Counted from the first letter of the stretch, positions 2,689 through 16,290 are shown. The stretch is 59,522 nt of DNA from an uncultured virus (IMG/VR IMGVR_UViG_3300020048_000045) (IMGVR_UViG_3300020048_000045); one strand, 5' to 3'. Notes: generated by a model not told the origin, from the sequence alone. Program-made: numbers and translations.

Positions 2689-3734
2689 AATTCAAGAGCT
2701 TTGTTAAGCCATTTCCTCTCCACTTCCTCATCACTTGTGATGATATAGATGTGAGCTTTCTTATCTGGATTATCATATTCCATGGACATGCATCTGTTAA
2801 TCTTCTGAGCCAGGTTCTCACTATTACTGTCAAAGTAATTGATAATCACCTTGTTCAATGGTTTGTAAGTTACACCAGTGTTTCCAATCTTTACAACAGC
2901 CATGTGATTCCCTTTACCATTCATAAAGTCTTCGAAGATGTTCTTCTCTGAACTCTTACTATGATAACTTGGAATGCCTAGGTTATCAGCTACTGCAGTC
3001 ACTCCACAGAATACAAGTATTCTATCATCAGGAGACTGTTTAAGAATAGCAGTTGTCTTTGCCTGTTTTGCAAGACTGCTCTGAATGATTCTCATTCTGG
3101 CCAGACGCATAAACATTGTATCACGTCCCTGCATCTCCATCTTGTTAATCACCCAGCCCAATTCATCAAATCTCTGTTTCTCAGTCTTGTACTTTCCCTT
3201 AAAATTCAGTTTTATTCTATTATCCAGGGAAACTTTAACAACAGCTATTTCATAATCTGCAACCACACCTTCAGCAATAGCTTGTTCAATTGGATATTCA
3301 GCCACCACATTTAGTCCCAGATTAATAGAAAGACTCTTTTCTGTCCACTTGGATAACGTTCCTGAAAGACCTAAGATATTTCTGTTAATCTCAATTACCT
3401 CTGCAGCAGCTTCCATCTGAGCAGGAGAAAGCAAATGTATCTCGTCAATAATAACAAGATCATATTCCTCTCCTTTGTGCTTCTTTAAGGAAAGATGTGT
3501 AGTGTAAGTAATTTCACTGTCCTTATACCCACGGGTCTCCAGGTCTGTTTCCCAGGAATGTTTGATCTTCTTGTCAGGATATGCAATTAAAACGTTTCTG
3601 GGCGTTAATTGCTCCATTATATTTATTGACGTATAAATCTTTCCAAACCTAGGACACAGATGCAGGATCCCAAATCTTCCCATGTTAAGCCAAGCCTTGG
3701 CAAATTCTGCCTGTCTTTGATCTCTTAAGCTCAT
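2689..3734 (-). CDS. Superfamily 2 (DExH) helicase; 3' end lost in N gap
   Basis: PRFGK Walker A variant, IIDEIH motif II, LSGT motif III, QKINR motif VI; gap at 2260-2688. Confidence 0.8.
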
Positions 3735-3894: not shown

Positions 3895-4968
3895 TCATTG
3901 TTTAAAAAAGAATGTTTTGTTTCTAATTGCTTCATAATCACTCTCTGTAATCTTATCTTTTCTTGGAAGTTCTTTAAACATCCCTACCTGGCCTAAAAAT
4001 CCAAGCCCAATTCTCACATCGTCTCCTTCATAGGAATTCTTAATGAGTCTTAAGCTTCGATAATACTTAGCACCACTTGCATCCTTCAGCTTGTCCATAC
4101 TATATCCAGACTTGTCTGAAACATTATATCTCATGGGATCAAACAATGCAATAACAACATCAGCATCATCCTGGGTCTGACCACTCTCCTTGAAATCCTC
4201 AAGTTGTGGCTCCACATCTCCTGCTTTGATCCTAATGGGATTAGAAATATCTCTATTGAACTGACTGACACAAACAGGACTATATCCATAAAAATCCCTG
4301 GCATATCTAAGCTCATCAGACATCTTGTCTATTGCAGCTTTCTTTGTTACCAAATCTTTTGTAGGCTTCAATAGACCAATATGATCTAACACCACAAGAG
4401 TGATTTCATTGGGATCGTTGGGAATATACCTCTTGTTATATTCATCAATCTGCTCAATCCTGCCATTTTTCAATGCATGATCTTTAAGGTCTTTGGCAAT
4501 ACCTACAGGATTCTCTGGTCCATCGATGATAGTGATAACATTTTCCAGACCATCAATATAGTCTTTATATAAAACTACAAGATCGTGCTGATCCAATGTT
4601 AATTTATCATCTTTATTCCAGCTTAGCAACTTACCAATTGGTAGAATGACTCCATGCTCAAGAAAGATCTTTCTACTGGTCCACTTGGCAAGCTTATACA
4701 CTCTGCTTCTCTCCATAGATCGATAAATGATCCTCAGCTTAATGTTGGTTGTATTCTCTTTAGAGATATACCAATCATATGGATTCAAAACGAATGCATC
4801 ATCAAGAAAGGAAGTCTTTCCAGATCCAGTGAGTCCACCTATGAGATAATAGATTCTCTTTCTAATTCCTATGAATTTATTGAGTCTATTAAACCCCATA
4901 GGGATCCCACTGTTTCTTCCAGCCATCCCATGTTTTACCTCATCATATAGTTCATCAAAATTACTCAT
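3895..4968 (-). CDS. dnaB: Replicative DnaB-like helicase
   Basis: GGLTGSGKT Walker A, VVLDHIGLL, VSQFNRD, KESGQTQDDADVVIAL, IKNS motifs. Confidence 0.9.
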   Translation of the reverse strand: MSNFDELYDEVKHGMAGRNSGIPMGFNRLNKFIGIRKRIYYLIGGLTGSGKTSFLDDAFVLNPYDWYISKENTTNIKLRIIYRSMERSRVYKLAKWTSRKIFLEHGVILPIGKLLSWNKDDKLTLDQHDLVVLYKDYIDGLENVITIIDGPENPVGIAKDLKDHALKNGRIEQIDEYNKRYIPNDPNEITLVVLDHIGLLKPTKDLVTKKAAIDKMSDELRYARDFYGYSPVCVSQFNRDISNPIRIKAGDVEPQLEDFKESGQTQDDADVVIALFDPMRYNVSDKSGYSMDKLKDASGAKYYRSLRLIKNSYEGDDVRIGLGFLGQVGMFKELPRKDKITESDYEAIRNKTFFFKQ

Positions 4969-13709: not shown

Positions 13710-14009
13710 CTATAACTCTTCTAATACCTTCTCTAGTTTATCAACTACGTCCTCATAACATGCTTTGCAATCTCTTGCAAAATTTGTACATGCATCATGA
13801 TGTTTACATAGATGTGCAGGGCCTTTTTTATCATCAATATTCTTAATCTGTTCCCTGTATATCCCTATAATAGCTTCAATGAGCCTCTTTCTCTCCCTAA
13901 GGTATTTCTCCATAGAGGGAACAATAAGATCATTGATGTATCCCTCATCCAAAATGACTTCCTTAGGATGATCTTTCATAAGCTGATGTAGTGTTTGCCA
14001 TTCCATCAT
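13710..14009 (-). CDS. Hypothetical protein
   Basis: 99-aa ORF with C/H cluster. Confidence 0.55.
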   Translation of the reverse strand: MMEWQTLHQLMKDHPKEVILDEGYINDLIVPSMEKYLRERKRLIEAIIGIYREQIKNIDDKKGPAHLCKHHDACTNFARDCKACYEDVVDKLEKVLEEL

Positions 14010-14255: not shown

Positions 14256-14328
14256 TAACGCTGGCACGATTCGAACATGCGACCCAGGCTTATGCGATGC
14301 CCGTACTCTACCACTGAGCTACAGCGTT
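14256..14328 (-). tRNA. tRNA-like RNA with 9-nt non-canonical anticodon loop
   Basis: AACGCTG/CAGCGTT-A acceptor, intact D and T arms, anticodon stem CGGGC/GCCTG enclosing ATCGCATAA. Confidence 0.75.
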
Positions 14329-14332
14329 GTGT

Positions 14333-14474
14333 AATCCCCTTTAACGCAGGGGATCAGTTTCGTGCTTACGCAGCCAGTCTAACTGGTTGTAAAGCAAGTG
14401 TTCTTGTTTTGCCTGTTATGGCTTGATGCTTCTCTTACTATCTGCTTCATCGCCTGTCAAAACCAGTCACCCCC
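14333..14474 (-). ncRNA. ssrA: tmRNA coding piece (5' tRNA-like half plus tag reading frame) of a permuted ssrA
   Basis: Starts GGGGGTGACTGGTTTTGACAGGCG; ATAACA then tag frame 14413-14366 = GKTRTLALQPVRLAA*; terminal hairpin GATCCCCT/AGGGGATT. Confidence 0.9.
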
Positions 14475-14544
14475 TTATAAGGTTTAGGATACAGCAGTCA
14501 ATCTCATCTGTATCCTCTAACTTCAACAATTAATTGAACTGAAG

Positions 14545-14562
14545 TGGAGGTGAGGGGAGTCG
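14545..14562 (-). ncRNA. ssrA: tmRNA acceptor piece, exon 2 (3' T-arm and acceptor strand)
   Basis: CGACTCCCCTCACCTCCA; CACCTCC pairs with GGGGGTG giving G3-U70 and discriminator A. Confidence 0.9.
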
Positions 14563-14970
14563 CTATCCCTCTATTTGGAAGAATCTCATAACAAGAGTAT
14601 TTCTCTCTTGTTGTTCCTCATCTGTATACTTACCATTTCTTTTTGTCTTGGCTTGTATAAGATTGTAGGTTTCGATTCTGTGCTTCTTTTTAGGATGGAT
14701 GCTCATCAGCTTATTAGCAACTTTTAATCCACTTTGATAAGAATATTTAAGCTCAAAGGAGACTCCATGATGTTCTTTAAGTTTATCCTTTTTAGAGATA
14801 AAACCTTTAACACCTATGTCAATAAGAATAAACTTCTGGATTTCTTCAAGTATTGTCCTCTCATTGTTATGAAAACTTACCTGAATAGTCTTGTTCTTAC
14901 CCTTATTGTTACTAATTGCTGTGACACTTCCATCTGCGTCAAAGAAACCTGTGATATAATCCCAATTCAT
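14563..14970 (-). CDS. Single-motif LAGLIDADG homing endonuclease (135 aa)
   Basis: MNWDYITGFFDADGSV; located after P7/P9 inside the intron. Confidence 0.88.
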   Translation of the reverse strand: MNWDYITGFFDADGSVTAISNNKGKNKTIQVSFHNNERTILEEIQKFILIDIGVKGFISKKDKLKEHHGVSFELKYSYQSGLKVANKLMSIHPKKKHRIETYNLIQAKTKRNGKYTDEEQQERNTLVMRFFQIEG

Positions 14971-14987
14971 AGCTTTACAGTTTATTG

Positions 14988-15019
14988 TAAAGATAGGGGA
15001 AATATACATCACCTCCAAA
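14988..15019 (-). promoter_or_regulatory. Bacteroidota-type promoter inside the intron, upstream of the endonuclease
   Basis: TTTG-N20-TATCTTTA, 17 nt upstream of the ATG at 14970. Confidence 0.65.
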
Positions 15020-15228
15020 TATATTCTACAATTTCTTGTAGGATTGGACTATATCATCACCTGTTCTAGGTGTTGGATGCTGTAGGCTCACCGTAGTGTC
15101 CTTAGTCTCTGAACCTTCCTTGATCTTCCCCAAGGCTTGGCTGCTGATTACCTTATCTTCCCAGACTTAGGGTTCCAGCAATTCATCCAATTTTTAATTA
15201 TACATCCCTGTATAATGGGTCCAACTCG

Positions 15229-15262
15229 AACCCCTGTCCAAACGACTGCCTATAATCGTCAA
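15229..15262 (-). ncRNA. ssrA: tmRNA acceptor piece, exon 1 (5' end approximate)
   Basis: GTCGTTTGGACAGGGGTT; GTCGTTTG pairs with CAGGCGAT of the coding piece (helix 2). Confidence 0.85.
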
Positions 15263-15272
15263 CAAAACATCG

Positions 15273-15351
15273 TAACGCTAAATGGATTCGAACCACTGAC
15301 CCAGGCTAATGTTTGGCTGTGCCTGTACTCTACCAACTGAGTTATAGCGTT
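15273..15351 (-). tRNA. tRNA-like RNA with 14-nt non-canonical anticodon loop
   Basis: AACGCTA/TAGCGTT-A acceptor, D arm, CAGGC/GCCTG stem enclosing ACAGCCAAACATTA, AGTGG-TTCGAAT-CCATT T-arm. Confidence 0.75.
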
Positions 15352-15359
15352 ATATACCC

Positions 15360-15822
15360 TCCTCTCAAGCTATAATAAATAGCGGTGTCAGATTTGGGTT
15401 ATCTCTGTCTGTTCCAGAGTGTCAAAGAATAACAAATAATCAAATGATTAGCACCCTCTTGTCTTACTACACCAGCCCTTTATCAAAAAGGTTGAGGTTC
15501 TTATGTTAACTCTGGTTCATAATATCTGTTATAATAAGAGTAGGGTCACGATGATTTAGGTTGGCTCACCTTAAGGGTTAGTACTCTCATATCATCTTGC
15601 TTGAGACTCATTCGTGTTGTGATGTTTGTGGTCAGGGCTGTGTACGTTAGCCTCAAAGACACTTCTTAACACCTTCTAATCATGCACCCTTTCTCAAGGA
15701 GCAACACGTTACGACTTTCATCGTACATCTTTATGCGAATTGAAGGGAAGTTGTTGCCAACTGCATGCATTTCTGCATCTGCCACGACTTATTCACATCA
15801 GGGTCACTGTTTAGCCTGTTTA
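15360..15822 (-). ncRNA. Candidate large structured ncRNA (unassigned)
   Basis: No ORF of 60 aa or more; four GNRA-capped hairpins on the minus strand and further stems. Confidence 0.6.
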
Positions 15823-15828
15823 ATTTAA

Positions 15829-16010
15829 AAACTACCTGTCCACTTACTAAGTGTGGAATATATGGAATAGGAAATACCCACTGCTCCTATTTTCAAGAGT
15901 CATCCGACTCTTAGGTCTATCAATATCTTATCGCAAACAAACATCCTTCTTAGCAAGGATTATCGAACGCTTAAAGCAGATTCAACTGTTTGCATTTCAG
16001 CAGGCAGTTT
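15829..16010 (-). ncRNA. Candidate ~180-nt multi-stem ncRNA (unassigned)
   Basis: Closing helix AAACTGCCTG/CAGGTAGTTT enclosing at least four hairpins. Confidence 0.55.
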
Positions 16011-16014
16011 AAAA

Positions 16015-16290
16015 TTATTTCTTCAATGTTGCATTCAGACTGTCTAACATTTGAATAGCTTGTGGATAGGTTGTGTATCTATCCAATACAATACTTTCAT
16101 CTGCTTGCCAGTCTATATCAACAACAATTTTAGGAGATGCTCCATTATTGTTACACGTTGAATTAAGATAATAGCCTCTTACTTTATGATCAGCTGTAAA
16201 AGCTCTTATAATAACAGCAAATATAACAATACAGGCTAATGTTATAAAAAATGTAATAACATTGCCCCAAAAGTCTTCATCAAATTTCAT
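16015..16290 (-). CDS. Hypothetical membrane-anchored protein
   Basis: N-terminal hydrophobic helix. Confidence 0.6.
   Translation of the reverse strand: MKFDEDFWGNVITFFITLACIVIFAVIIRAFTADHKVRGYYLNSTCNNNGASPKIVVDIDWQADESIVLDRYTTYPQAIQMLDSLNATLKK

What the first reader, a model, noticed from the sequence alone, without database searches (positions are those of the whole stretch)
15360..15822. Unassigned ~460-nt GNRA-rich structured RNA upstream of the tRNA/tmRNA cluster
Seen: an ORF-free stretch in an otherwise densely coding arm. It has four GNRA-capped hairpins, all on the minus strand: TGCA-GAAA-TGCA (15766-15777), AGTTG-GCAA-CAACT (15749-15762), TACGAT-GAAA-GTCGTA (15710-15725) and CCTT-GAGA-AAGG (~15688-15699). 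Further stems include CAACCTTT/AAAGGGCTG and AGAGTA/TACTCT. Established: large phage ncRNAs such as GOLLD and ROOL often sit beside tRNA genes. I cannot assign this one to a family, so it may be a new class.
Basis: partly seen in the sequence, partly recalled or inferred. Interest (0 to 1): 0.75.

Follow-up and report, generated by a model that had tools for sequence, protein, structure and literature searches.

The report
Uncatalogued folded phage RNA gene
The gene-free stretch encodes one copy of a widespread, intricately folded phage RNA that no RNA catalogue lists and whose job is unknown, placed at the head of a row of tRNA and tmRNA genes.

Summary
Window 15352-16014 has no credible ORF, and four GNRA-capped hairpins lie on the minus strand (0 of 5000 shuffles reach four; no such cluster in 1.24 Mb of control phage DNA).

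The region is not an orphan. A covariance model built from this one sequence led to homologs. One conserved block then matched 86 IMG/VR phage contigs, and a profile hit all 80 that were fetched. A profile built without the window hits 15745-15431 (minus) at E 4e-21.

An alignment of 67 sequences supports eight helices, including a pseudoknot: 92.6% of cells paired against 84.4% in shuffles, and 28 pairs with compensatory changes (0 of 500 shuffles reach either value).

Rfam 15 has no match. The fourth is, across the family, a covarying stem whose 9-nt loop forms the pseudoknot. The first two are specific to this lineage.

A member lies in Cellulophaga phage phi14:2, in a gap that probably corresponds to a reported abundant, persistent "long non-coding RNA". 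Function is unknown. My best guess is a stable trans-acting RNA cut out of an RNA-gene transcript.

This scan has met the family before on other DNA.

In passing: the adjacent tmRNA gene is circularly permuted and also carries a group I intron with a homing endonuclease.

The parts
15786..15818 (-). Conserved motif upstream of the RNA (GGCTAAACA.TGA..CCT..TGT.AAT type). Candidate promoter or 5' leader signal.
   Evidence: blastn of window 16014-15780 finds it upstream of the element in 8 loci. A regex for a core of this motif (AAACAGG[C/T]TAAACA type) finds 12 occurrences in the held loci. A low-coverage relative in run X5 shares 15787-15842 and then diverges. Its function was not tested.
15749..15778 (-). 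Specific to this lineage and not part of the family core.
   Evidence: No aligned counterpart in the other 66 sequences of alignment A2.
15726..15737 (-). Conserved 5' block (CGCATAAAGATG; family consensus ACATAAAGATA).
15710..15725 (-).
   Evidence: All 6 stem pairs show both-side changes and 89.8% of cells are paired. The loop G and A are invariant in 67 of 67 sequences. Loop types are GUAA 50, GAAA 5, GAGA 5, GUGA 2, GGAA 1 of the 63 parsed.
15702..15708 (-). 5' strand of long-range helix PA (CGTGTTG), pairing with 15613-15619.
   Evidence: 100% of cells paired in 67 sequences. The first pair is U-A in 60 and C-G in 7, the window among the 7, and is never broken.
15684..15701 (-). Loop bases 15692-15698 form the 5' strand of the pseudoknot.
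   Evidence: Stem: 4 of 4 pairs have both-side changes and 93.6% of cells are paired. Compensated loop/partner variants occur in L151, L193 and L173.
15620..15683 (-). Variable insert between the loop hairpin and PA 3'. Its length and sequence differ in every member.
15600..15619 (-). Most conserved block: PA 3' strand CAACACG (15613-15619), unpaired AATGAG, then pseudoknot 3' strand TCTCAAG (15600-15606).
   Evidence: The pattern from this block matched 86 IMG/VR contigs. In the window the pseudoknot is 7 bp, shifted by two bases from the family register.
15550..15596 (-). Helix H5 (GATGATAT 15589-15596 with AAATCATC 15550-15557) enclosing a variable hairpin.
   Evidence: 92.5% of cells paired and 6 of 8 pairs have both-side changes. 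The window's strands differ from the consensus GTAGTTAA/TTAACTAC yet still pair at 7 of 8 positions.
15453..15546 (-). Helix H6 (ACCCTACTCTTAT 15534-15546 with GTAAGACAAGAGGGT 15453-15467) enclosing a long lineage-specific insert.
   Evidence: H6a is 97.3% paired and H6b 78.3% paired, with both-side changes.
15446..15456 (-). Conserved 3' block GGGTGCTAATC (probable 3' end region of the RNA).
   Evidence: In 6 of 64 unique members a tRNA, tmRNA or tRNA-like 5' half starts 5-14 nt after this block.
15352..15445 (-). 94-nt tail between the RNA core and the tRNA-like gene. No homolog was found.
15273..15351 (-). tRNA-like gene with a 14-nt anticodon loop, directly downstream. Probable processing signal that frees the upstream RNA and the tmRNA acceptor piece.
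   Evidence: Rfam tRNA 52.7 bits. ARAGORN does not call it. The processing role is inferred.

Best explanation
Window 15737-15446 (minus strand) is a gene for a stable, elaborately folded non-coding RNA. It belongs to a widespread RNA family found almost only in phages and absent from Rfam.

The fold, in 5' to 3' order:
- a GNRA-capped hairpin;
- a long-range helix, CGUGUUG with CAACACG;
- a stem whose conserved 9-nt loop pairs with a downstream strand to form a pseudoknot;
- two further long-range helices that enclose variable inserts.
Strictly conserved unpaired stretches lie between these helices.

Proposed mechanism (inferred). The RNA is the first gene of a minus-strand RNA operon: ncRNA, tRNA-like gene, intron-bearing permuted tmRNA, tRNA-Cys-like gene, tRNA-Thr. 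The operon may be driven from the conserved motif at 15818-15786. The RNA would be released from the precursor by the host's tRNA-processing enzymes acting on the adjacent tRNA-like gene. It would then act in trans as an abundant, long-lived RNA, most likely by binding a host or phage protein as a scaffold or decoy.

Shown: family membership, conserved structure, strand, and co-orientation with tRNA/tmRNA genes. Probable, from the literature plus my own mapping: high and persistent expression of the phi14:2 member. Inferred only: promoter, processing, trans action and protein binding.
For: Homology:
- A single-sequence covariance model of 15790-15680 hit four phage loci upstream of their tmRNA genes, on the same strand: L074 at 37.9 bits (E 4e-7), and L067, L066 and L087.
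- Extended blocks align over about 300 nt in 5 loci.
- The block pattern matched 86 IMG/VR contigs. A profile hit 80 of the 80 fetched, giving 69 unique sequences.
- A profile built from those 69 without the window gives one hit in the window, 15745-15431 minus, E 4.3e-21.

Structure, with 43 pairs in 8 helices counted on 67 sequences:
- 92.6% of cells paired against 84.4 +/- 0.3 in shuffles (0 of 500 reach it).
- 28 pairs with both-side changes against 17.0 +/- 2.3 (0 of 500).
- Covariation score 0.250 against 0.109 (0 of 500).
- Slid controls: 38.5-47.1% paired, covariation 0.043-0.084.
- Pseudoknot compensations: UGGAAA/UUUCCA in L151, UGAGCA/UGCUCA in L193, GGCAU/GUGCC in L173.

Not a leader of one gene: the largest cluster of neighbouring proteins holds 4 of 80 loci.

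Orientation: all 22 tRNA/tmRNA genes within 600 nt lie on the RNA's strand, in 20 of 80 loci. 15 of 64 unique members have one downstream, all on the same strand, and 6 of those 64 have one starting 5-14 nt after the 3' block.

Phage restriction: 86 viral contigs carry the pattern. Among one genome for each of 185,579 prokaryote species it matched only 4 MAG contigs, whose taxonomy labels disagree.

Expression of a relative:
- A family member matches Cellulophaga phage phi14:2 at 3119-3290, plus strand.
- Locus L177 is that same genome, matching the phi14:2 gap at E 4e-197.
- The member lies in the 685-nt gap between gp006 and gp010.
- The Drobysheva et al. preprint reports two long intergenic regions transcribed rightward above most genes, early and persistently, and calls them long non-coding RNAs of undetermined function (passages read).
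Against: Nothing bears directly on function.
- No RNA data exist for this phage, so transcription, ends and stability of the window's copy are untested.
- Predicted folding energy of the window's copy is not better than shuffles.
- The structure I tested was derived from the same sequences, which favours it in the slid-partner control.
- The MAFFT alignment is poor in the variable inserts, and some rows are one column out of register at the loop hairpin.
- No promoter or terminator consensus stands out: 8 sigma-70-like sites against 7.8 expected, and 0 terminators.
- The closest relatives of this phage by a neighbouring protein (63-66% identity) have no copy at the syntenic place or anywhere in their contigs, so the gene is dispensable or mobile.
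Confidence: 0.6

Rival explanations
1. It is a cis-acting 5' leader of the tRNA/tmRNA operon. On this view it has no role of its own, and controls transcription read-through, processing or stability of the RNA genes behind it.
For: In the window it sits directly upstream of, and on the same strand as, a tRNA-like gene, a tmRNA and two tRNAs, with no terminator-like site between them. In 20 of 80 family loci a tRNA or tmRNA lies within 600 nt, always on the same strand. In some loci the next gene starts 5-14 nt after the 3' block.
Against: 49 of 64 unique members have no ARAGORN-called tRNA or tmRNA within 600 nt downstream. The flanking genes are otherwise unrelated to each other. The phi14:2 member is followed by protein-coding genes, and the reported transcript accumulates as an abundant species in its own right.
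Confidence: 0.15
2. It is a ribozyme. It would either cut itself out of the precursor or act on other RNAs, for example in tRNA or tmRNA maturation.
For: It has a compact pseudoknotted core with strictly invariant unpaired nucleotides: AAUGAGU, GCAAG and GAC are invariant and GGGU.CU nearly so, 35 of the 36 invariant columns lying in these blocks, helix PA or the two ends of the GNRA loop. It recurs beside RNA genes that need processing. A self-splicing ribozyme lies next door.
Against: No Rfam ribozyme or intron model matches, even at E<=10. No conserved cleavage-site context was identified. Invariant unpaired bases are equally typical of protein- or ligand-binding RNAs.
Confidence: 0.12
3. 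One reading: one roughly 460-nt GNRA-rich RNA of the GOLLD/ROOL kind covers the whole flagged stretch.
For: The four GNRA hairpins are a real and rare cluster. The whole 663-nt gap is ORF-free. Predicted long-range helices could close larger domains.
Against: Conservation covers only about 290 nt. Hairpins 1 and 2 and the 94-nt tail have no counterparts in other members. The 15818-15786 segment recurs as a separate upstream motif. GOLLD and ROOL models do not match.
Confidence: 0.1
4. It is non-functional spacer: debris of a decayed intron, a tmRNA body or a gene, left in a recombination hot spot.
For: The tRNA island is variable among relatives, and synteny with the closest IMG/VR relatives ends at 16287. 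A near-identical relative diverges at 15787. Similarity to the neighbouring intron is weak: 69% over 45 nt, E 0.25. Folding energy is unremarkable.
Against: The profile match to 69 sequences from unrelated phage contigs has E 4e-21. Compensatory changes keep eight helices. No protein or RNA family remnant was detected.
Confidence: 0.02

Closest known systems
Abundant 'long non-coding RNA' of an early-region intergenic gap of Cellulophaga phage phi14:2 (Drobysheva et al., bioRxiv 10.1101/2020.03.07.982082; passages read)
   Same: The sequences are homologous. A family member matches phi14:2 at 3119-3290, plus strand. The phi14:2 gap aligns to about 40 family loci over its positions 215-460. It also shares exact blocks with window 15550-15532 and 15469-15447. 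The strand agrees with the reported rightward transcription. Neither RNA is in Rfam.
   Different: The paper reports only transcript abundance and timing, with no structure, family or function. That its 'g004-g005 junction' is this gap is my inference. The window's copy has two extra 5' GNRA hairpins and longer inserts, and it precedes tRNA-like and tmRNA genes rather than protein genes. Its expression is untested.
GOLLD and ROOL RNAs
   Same: They are large structured RNAs of unknown function carried by phages and often beside tRNA genes.
   Different: Neither family's Rfam model matches at gathering score or at E<=10. The conserved core here is about 290 nt. No shared motifs were seen.
Small stable RNAs co-transcribed with the phage T4 tRNA cluster (recalled from memory; no call)
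   Same: These are phage RNAs of unknown function that lie within a tRNA gene cluster and would be released from a common precursor by tRNA-processing enzymes.
   Different: No sequence or structural relation was tested. The present family is larger, pseudoknotted and mostly found away from tRNA genes (49 of 64 unique members).
Group I intron (RF00028), such as the one 110 nt downstream
   Same: It is rich in GNRA loops, carried by a phage and mobile-looking in its distribution. There is one weak local similarity, 15604-15560 against 15123-15082 (E 0.25).
   Different: RF00028 scores 100.3 bits on 15239-15025 but gives nothing on the flagged region at E<=10. The family's helices do not correspond to a group I core.

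Membership tests
Uncatalogued phage RNA family that includes the phi14:2 intergenic RNA | Significant match to a sequence profile built from other members only | tested here: met
   nhmmer profile of 69 unique IMG/VR members. It gives one hit in the window, 15745-15431 minus, E 4.3e-21, 69.3 bits.
Uncatalogued phage RNA family that includes the phi14:2 intergenic RNA | The conserved blocks occur in the family's order: 5' block, GNRA hairpin, GUGUUG, loop hairpin, ACAACAC.AAUGAGU.....GCAAG, GACCCUACUCUUA, GGGUGCUA | tested here: met
   All are located in order on the minus strand.
Uncatalogued phage RNA family that includes the phi14:2 intergenic RNA | The covarying helices (GNRA hairpin, PA, H5, H6) and the loop-to-strand pseudoknot can all form | tested here: met
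   Window values: hairpin 6 of 6 pairs, PA 7 of 7 (with the C-G variant), H5 7 of 8, pseudoknot 7 of 7 in a register shifted by two bases, H6 formable. The loop-hairpin stem is only 3 pairs in the family register, and a 5-pair GAGA-tetraloop register competes with it.
Uncatalogued phage RNA family that includes the phi14:2 intergenic RNA | Transcribed as a discrete, abundant RNA | not testable with these tools
   No RNA run holds the stretch. Only the phi14:2 relative has published transcript data.
GOLLD / ROOL / other large Rfam ncRNAs | Match to the family's covariance model | tested here: not met
   No Rfam 15 family reaches its gathering score in 15352-16014. At E<=10 only four chance-level hits appear, the best at E 0.27. 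The same holds for 20 family loci and one typical member.
Group I intron | Match to RF00028, with the conserved P3-P8 core | tested here: not met
   No hit on the region. The positive control next door scores 100.3 bits.
tmRNA body or remnant | Match to tmRNA models, or similarity to the bodies of related phage tmRNAs | tested here: not met
   No tmRNA model hit upstream of 15272. No blastn similarity to 38 + 9 phage tmRNA loci outside the new family's blocks.
Cis-regulatory leader (riboswitch-like) | A conserved downstream gene family across members | tested here: not met
   The largest cluster of flanking proteins holds 4 of 80 loci.

The most novel reading that the evidence does not exclude
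The family is a new functional RNA class, either a ribozyme or the RNA core of a ribonucleoprotein. Phages of Bacteroidota-type hosts would make it in bulk from the first minutes of infection to take over or protect the translation machinery. It would work alongside phage tRNAs and tmRNA, for example by processing them or by decoying a host nuclease or defence factor that targets them.
Probability: 0.15. Interest if true: 0.9.

Novelty: categorically new. Interest (0 to 1): 0.68.

Why it matters
Large, conserved, pseudoknotted RNAs with invariant unpaired cores are rare. Each class solved so far has turned out to be a ribozyme, a riboswitch or the heart of an RNA-protein machine.

This family has several features that make it worth pursuing:
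- It occurs in at least 86 phage contigs.
- It is missing from Rfam.
- It has a member in a cultivable model phage, where the matching region is reported as one of the most abundant transcripts.

The question "what does it do?" can therefore be tested at the bench now.

The window adds a divergent member with extra hairpins and a shifted pseudoknot register. That helps to define which parts are essential. It also places the RNA at the head of an operon with an unusual tmRNA.

Caveats: the function is unknown, and the scan has already met this family on other DNA, so this window is one more instance rather than the first sighting.

Tried and rejected
Searches that found no homolog before the covariance-model step:
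- blastn of 15000-16020 against 50,697 GenBank phage records. All 113 matching records hit only the intron core, query positions 23-196.
- 60 loci around distant relatives of the 686-aa neighbour.
- 5 loci around relatives of the 187-aa neighbour, where synteny stops at 16287, and the whole contigs of 5 relatives.
- The 91-aa neighbour as anchor in IMG/VR, with 0 relatives, and in JGI metagenomes, with one spurious locus.
- Two exact-pattern scans of IMG/VR, each with 0 matches.
- blastn against 38 phage tmRNA loci at word size 9.
- No whole genome is held for the window.

Sequencing runs:
- No RNA holder is listed. Only the probable source run holds the stretch.
- Contigs of four other runs cover mainly the intron core plus short fragments and never span the region.

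Readings rejected:
- Protein-coding under table 11, TAG=Q or TGA=W.
- An internal duplicate of the downstream intron/tmRNA unit: Smith-Waterman score 21 against a shuffle mean of 22.5.
- A paralog elsewhere in the window.
- A tandem duplication of 16014-15880 against 15800-15600: only weak support, with 15 of 500 shuffles as good, and one 20-nt repeat at 85%.
- Replication origin: no repeats or skew change.
- Homologs of the second phi14:2 intergenic gap in the window: none.

Literature: searches found no paper describing the family. I read listings, not every paper. A 2026 preprint on noncoding sequence space (10.64898/2026.10.21.760802) was seen only in a listing and was not read.

Not done:
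- R-scape.
- A full-family covariance model, because alignment A2 has 621 columns and the limit is 400.
- Complex prediction, structure prediction and the protein searches, which were not relevant.

Full report
**Setting.** The window is phage DNA, with a terminase, a portal, a DNA polymerase and large virion proteins. Its terminase is 30-41% identical to those of crAss-like, Flavobacterium and Cellulophaga phages. No whole genome is held for it. Genes up to about 30.8 kb run on the minus strand.

**The RNA gene cluster.** Between the 91-aa ORF ending at 16015 and the ORF at 14009 lies a cluster of RNA genes on the minus strand:
- the flagged stretch;
- a tRNA-like gene, 15351-15273 (Rfam 52.7 bits; 14-nt anticodon loop; missed by ARAGORN);
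- a group I intron, 15239-15025 (RF00028, 100.3 bits);
- a LAGLIDADG endonuclease ORF, 15018-14563 (PF14528, 31.6 bits against a cut-off of 22.5);
- a weak permuted-tmRNA match, 14596-14366 (RF04321, 25.5 bits against a gathering score of 47);
- tRNA-Cys, 14328-14256;
- tRNA-Thr, 14251-14179.

**Checking the observation.**
- The stretch is ORF-free under table 11 and under TAG or TGA reassignment.
- Its 15 longest six-frame fragments match no Pfam family and, at E<=0.1, no PHROG.
- The four GNRA hairpins are real and lie on the minus strand only.
- Four in about 80 nt is far beyond chance: 0 of 5000 shuffles reach it (mean 0.38).
- With stems of 5 pairs or more, there is no cluster of four in 1.24 Mb of other phage DNA read on both strands.
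- Thermodynamics does not help. The z-score is -1.08 on minus and -0.17 on plus, and about 0 in 150-nt windows over the hairpins.
- Rfam 15 gives nothing at gathering score and nothing credible at E<=10 on 2.4 kb or on 681 nt alone.

**Finding relatives.** Ordinary routes failed. These were GenBank phages, 65 syntenic or related IMG/VR loci, whole contigs of relatives, protein anchors in IMG/VR and JGI metagenomes, exact patterns and public runs.

The closest relatives by the 187-aa neighbour (63-66% identity) have coding sequence where the window has its RNA island, and synteny stops at 16287.

The breakthrough was a covariance model built from the window alone, covering 15790-15680 with four hairpins and a closing helix. 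Searched over 368 kb of held loci, it hit L074 (37.9 bits, E 4e-7), L067, L066 and L087. Each hit lay 220-480 nt upstream of a phage tmRNA gene and on its strand.

Reading those loci showed conserved blocks over about 300 nt, and a profile found 5 loci. A 25-nt pattern from the most conserved block then matched 86 IMG/VR contigs. All 80 fetched loci were confirmed by the profile, giving 69 unique sequences.

A profile built from those 69 without the window finds the window once, at 15745-15431 minus, E 4.3e-21.

The same pattern matched only 4 contigs among one genome for each of 185,579 prokaryote species. All four are MAG contigs with mutually inconsistent taxon labels, so they are probably mis-binned phage DNA.

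**Structure.** In the 67-sequence alignment A2, conserved blocks alternate with inserts of very different length. RNAalifold recovered three helices, with 7 of its 16 pairs showing both-side changes.

I wrote a fuller structure with eight helices:
- a GNRA hairpin;
- long-range helix PA;
- a stem with a 9-nt loop;
- a pseudoknot between that loop and the strand after AAUGAG;
- H5;
- H6a, a single isolated pair and H6b.

The pair counts were as follows.

| Measure | Observed | Shuffles | Shuffles reaching observed |
|---|---|---|---|
| Cells paired | 92.6% | 84.4 +/- 0.3% | 0 of 500 |
| Pairs with both-side changes | 28 of 43 | 17.0 +/- 2.3 | 0 of 500 |
| Covariation score | 0.250 | 0.109 | 0 of 500 |

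Sliding the partners by 1-3 columns drops pairing to 38.5-47.1% and covariation to 0.043-0.084.

Clean examples:
- The first PA pair is U-A in 60 sequences and C-G in 7, and is never broken.
- The pseudoknot reads UGAGAA/UUCUCA in most members. It is compensated as UGGAAA/UUUCCA in L151, UGAGCA/UGCUCA in L193 and GGCAU/GUGCC in L173.

Caveats: the structure was derived from these sequences, the relatedness of the sequences inflates the shuffle test, and the alignment is rough in the inserts.

**The window's copy.** Coordinates are.
- 5' block, 15737-15726.
- GNRA hairpin, 15725-15710.
- PA, 15708-15702 with 15619-15613, using the C-G variant.
- Loop hairpin, 15701-15684.
- Pseudoknot, 15698-15692 with 15606-15600: 7 pairs, two bases out of the usual register.
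- H5, 15596-15589 with 15557-15550. Both strands differ from the consensus yet pair at 7 of 8 positions.
- H6, 15546-15534 with 15467-15453.
- 3' block, 15456-15446.

Across the family, however, covariation supports the outer stem and the pseudoknot, and two of the three variant loops are no longer GNRA.

Hairpins 1 and 2 (15778-15749) and the 94-nt tail (15445-15352) have no counterparts elsewhere.

**Upstream of the core.** The segment 15818-15786 carries a motif that recurs upstream of the element in other loci: 8 by blastn, and 12 occurrences by a regex for a core of the motif. A low-coverage relative in run X5 shares 15787-15842 and 15924-16182 and then continues with unrelated sequence. 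This fits a portable promoter or leader signal, but I did not test it, and the sigma-70 scan shows nothing above chance.

**Context and function.**
- Flanking proteins are not conserved; the largest cluster holds 4 of 80 loci. A dedicated leader of one gene is therefore unlikely.
- tRNA or tmRNA genes lie within 600 nt in 20 of 80 loci, and all 22 such genes are on the RNA's strand.
- Among 64 unique members, 15 have one downstream, and in 6 a tRNA, tmRNA or tRNA-like 5' half begins 5-14 nt after the 3' block. RNase P cleavage of the neighbour would then make the RNA's 3' end; that step is inferred.

After reaching this point I consulted the scan's earlier notes. Other agents had met the same family in at least 13 other genomes. 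They linked it to an abundant unexplained transcript of Cellulophaga phage phi14:2.

I checked that lead:
- A family member matches phi14:2 (KC821624.1) at 3119-3290, plus strand, at 70.2% identity and E 2e-8.
- Locus L177 is that genome.
- The member lies in a 685-nt gap between gp006 and gp010 that GenBank fills with three tiny antisense ORFs, features that RefSeq has removed.
- The preprint states that two long intergenic regions (the g004-g005 and g005-g006 junctions) are transcribed rightward above most protein genes. They are present from the earliest time point and do not decline, and the authors call them long non-coding RNAs of undetermined function (passages only).

GenBank shows exactly two long gaps there, 2905-3589 and 4102-4601, flanking a short coding stretch, so the identification is likely. 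It remains my inference, because the supplementary tables were closed.

**Verdict.** The flagged stretch is a genuine structured RNA gene of an uncatalogued phage family. Identity is near certain. Function is unknown.

I favour a stable trans-acting RNA released from an RNA-gene precursor and acting through a bound protein. Debris is excluded by the covariation.

**In passing: the tmRNA.** This part rests on reading the sequences, on homology and on the weak Rfam hit. It was not tested further.

Exon junctions and the intron:
- By homology with L093, a phage tmRNA in standard gene order carries an intron 80.7% identical to the window's over 228 nt.
- By the boundary rules quoted in PMC11915505, the intron runs 15228-14563.
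- It sits in the T-loop. The 5' exon ends ...CAGGGGUU at 15229, and the 3' exon starts CGACUCCCCUCACCUCCA at 14562.
- The endonuclease ORF ends exactly at the intron's last base.

Permuted order:
- The 3' acceptor strand (14552-14546) lies upstream of the 5' acceptor GGGGGUG (14474-14468). Together they form a G3:U70 pair.
- The tag reading frame ends ...RLAA, with its stop codon at 14368-14366.
- The gene is therefore circularly permuted.

Helix next to the acceptor stem:
- It pairs UCGUUUG with CAGGCGA. It is kept relative to L093 by changes on both strands.

Comparison with other phage tmRNAs and the literature:
- All 9 IMG/VR phage tmRNAs found with the same exon-intron junction are in standard order.
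- Two phage loci, L165 and L133, match the window's 5' acceptor region; in L165 Rfam scores a permuted tmRNA without an intron (RF04321, 64.1 bits).
- The tmRNA database paper lists standard, permuted and intron forms but no form that is both permuted and intron-bearing (Table 3 as quoted).

Noticed in passing
window 14330-15272 (minus): The tmRNA gene appears to be both circularly permuted and interrupted in its T-loop by a 666-nt group I intron (15228-14563) that encodes a LAGLIDADG endonuclease. The acceptor piece lies at 15272-14545 and the coding piece at 14474 to about 14330, with a tag ending ...RLAA. A 2025 tmRNA database paper lists standard, permuted and intron forms but none that combines the last two.
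   Followed up: partly
window 15273-15351 and 14256-14328 (minus): Two paralogous tRNA-like genes share the same acceptor ends and have enlarged anticodon loops of 14 nt and 9 nt. They bracket the two tmRNA pieces. They could serve as processing punctuation or decode unusually. ARAGORN calls only the second, as tRNA-Cys.
   Followed up: no
window 15786-15818 (minus); also L135, L146, L147, L161, L174, L178, L179, L200 and others: A conserved motif of about 30 nt recurs upstream of the RNA family in many phage contigs. It is a candidate promoter or leader signal. It does not fit a sigma-70 consensus.
   Followed up: partly
window 15830-16014 (minus): The first 185 nt after the 91-aa ORF fold stably (-53 kcal/mol; window z-scores -2 to -3 on minus) into a closed domain with three hairpins. 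This domain is shared with a near-identical relative in run X5. Apart from its last 45-75 nt, which carry the upstream motif, no homolog was found in held loci.
   Followed up: partly
window 14385-14451 (run X4 contig): A close relative in another freshwater metagenome keeps the flanks of the tmRNA coding piece. It has a diverged segment of equal length, 67 nt, over the region upstream of and including the start of the tag frame.
   Followed up: no
L167 (= L086) about 90-230 nt after the RNA's 3' block; L087 upstream of the element: tRNA genes with the 5' half GUCAGGUGG..GAA and a normal 3' half are separated by an insert of about 70 nt in the anticodon region. ARAGORN does not call them. They sit directly beside family members.
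   Followed up: no
L165 2033-2295 and L133: In L165 a permuted tmRNA (RF04321, 64.1 bits) lies a few hundred nt downstream of a family member; L133 matches the window's tmRNA 5' region (85% over 47 nt). Two-piece tmRNAs therefore do occur in this phage group.
   Followed up: partly
KC821624.1 3106-3431 (L208 1607-1932): Three antisense 'hypothetical proteins' of 34-39 aa (gp007-gp009), annotated in the GenBank record of phi14:2, overlie the RNA gene and are probably spurious. RefSeq has removed at least two of them.
   Followed up: partly
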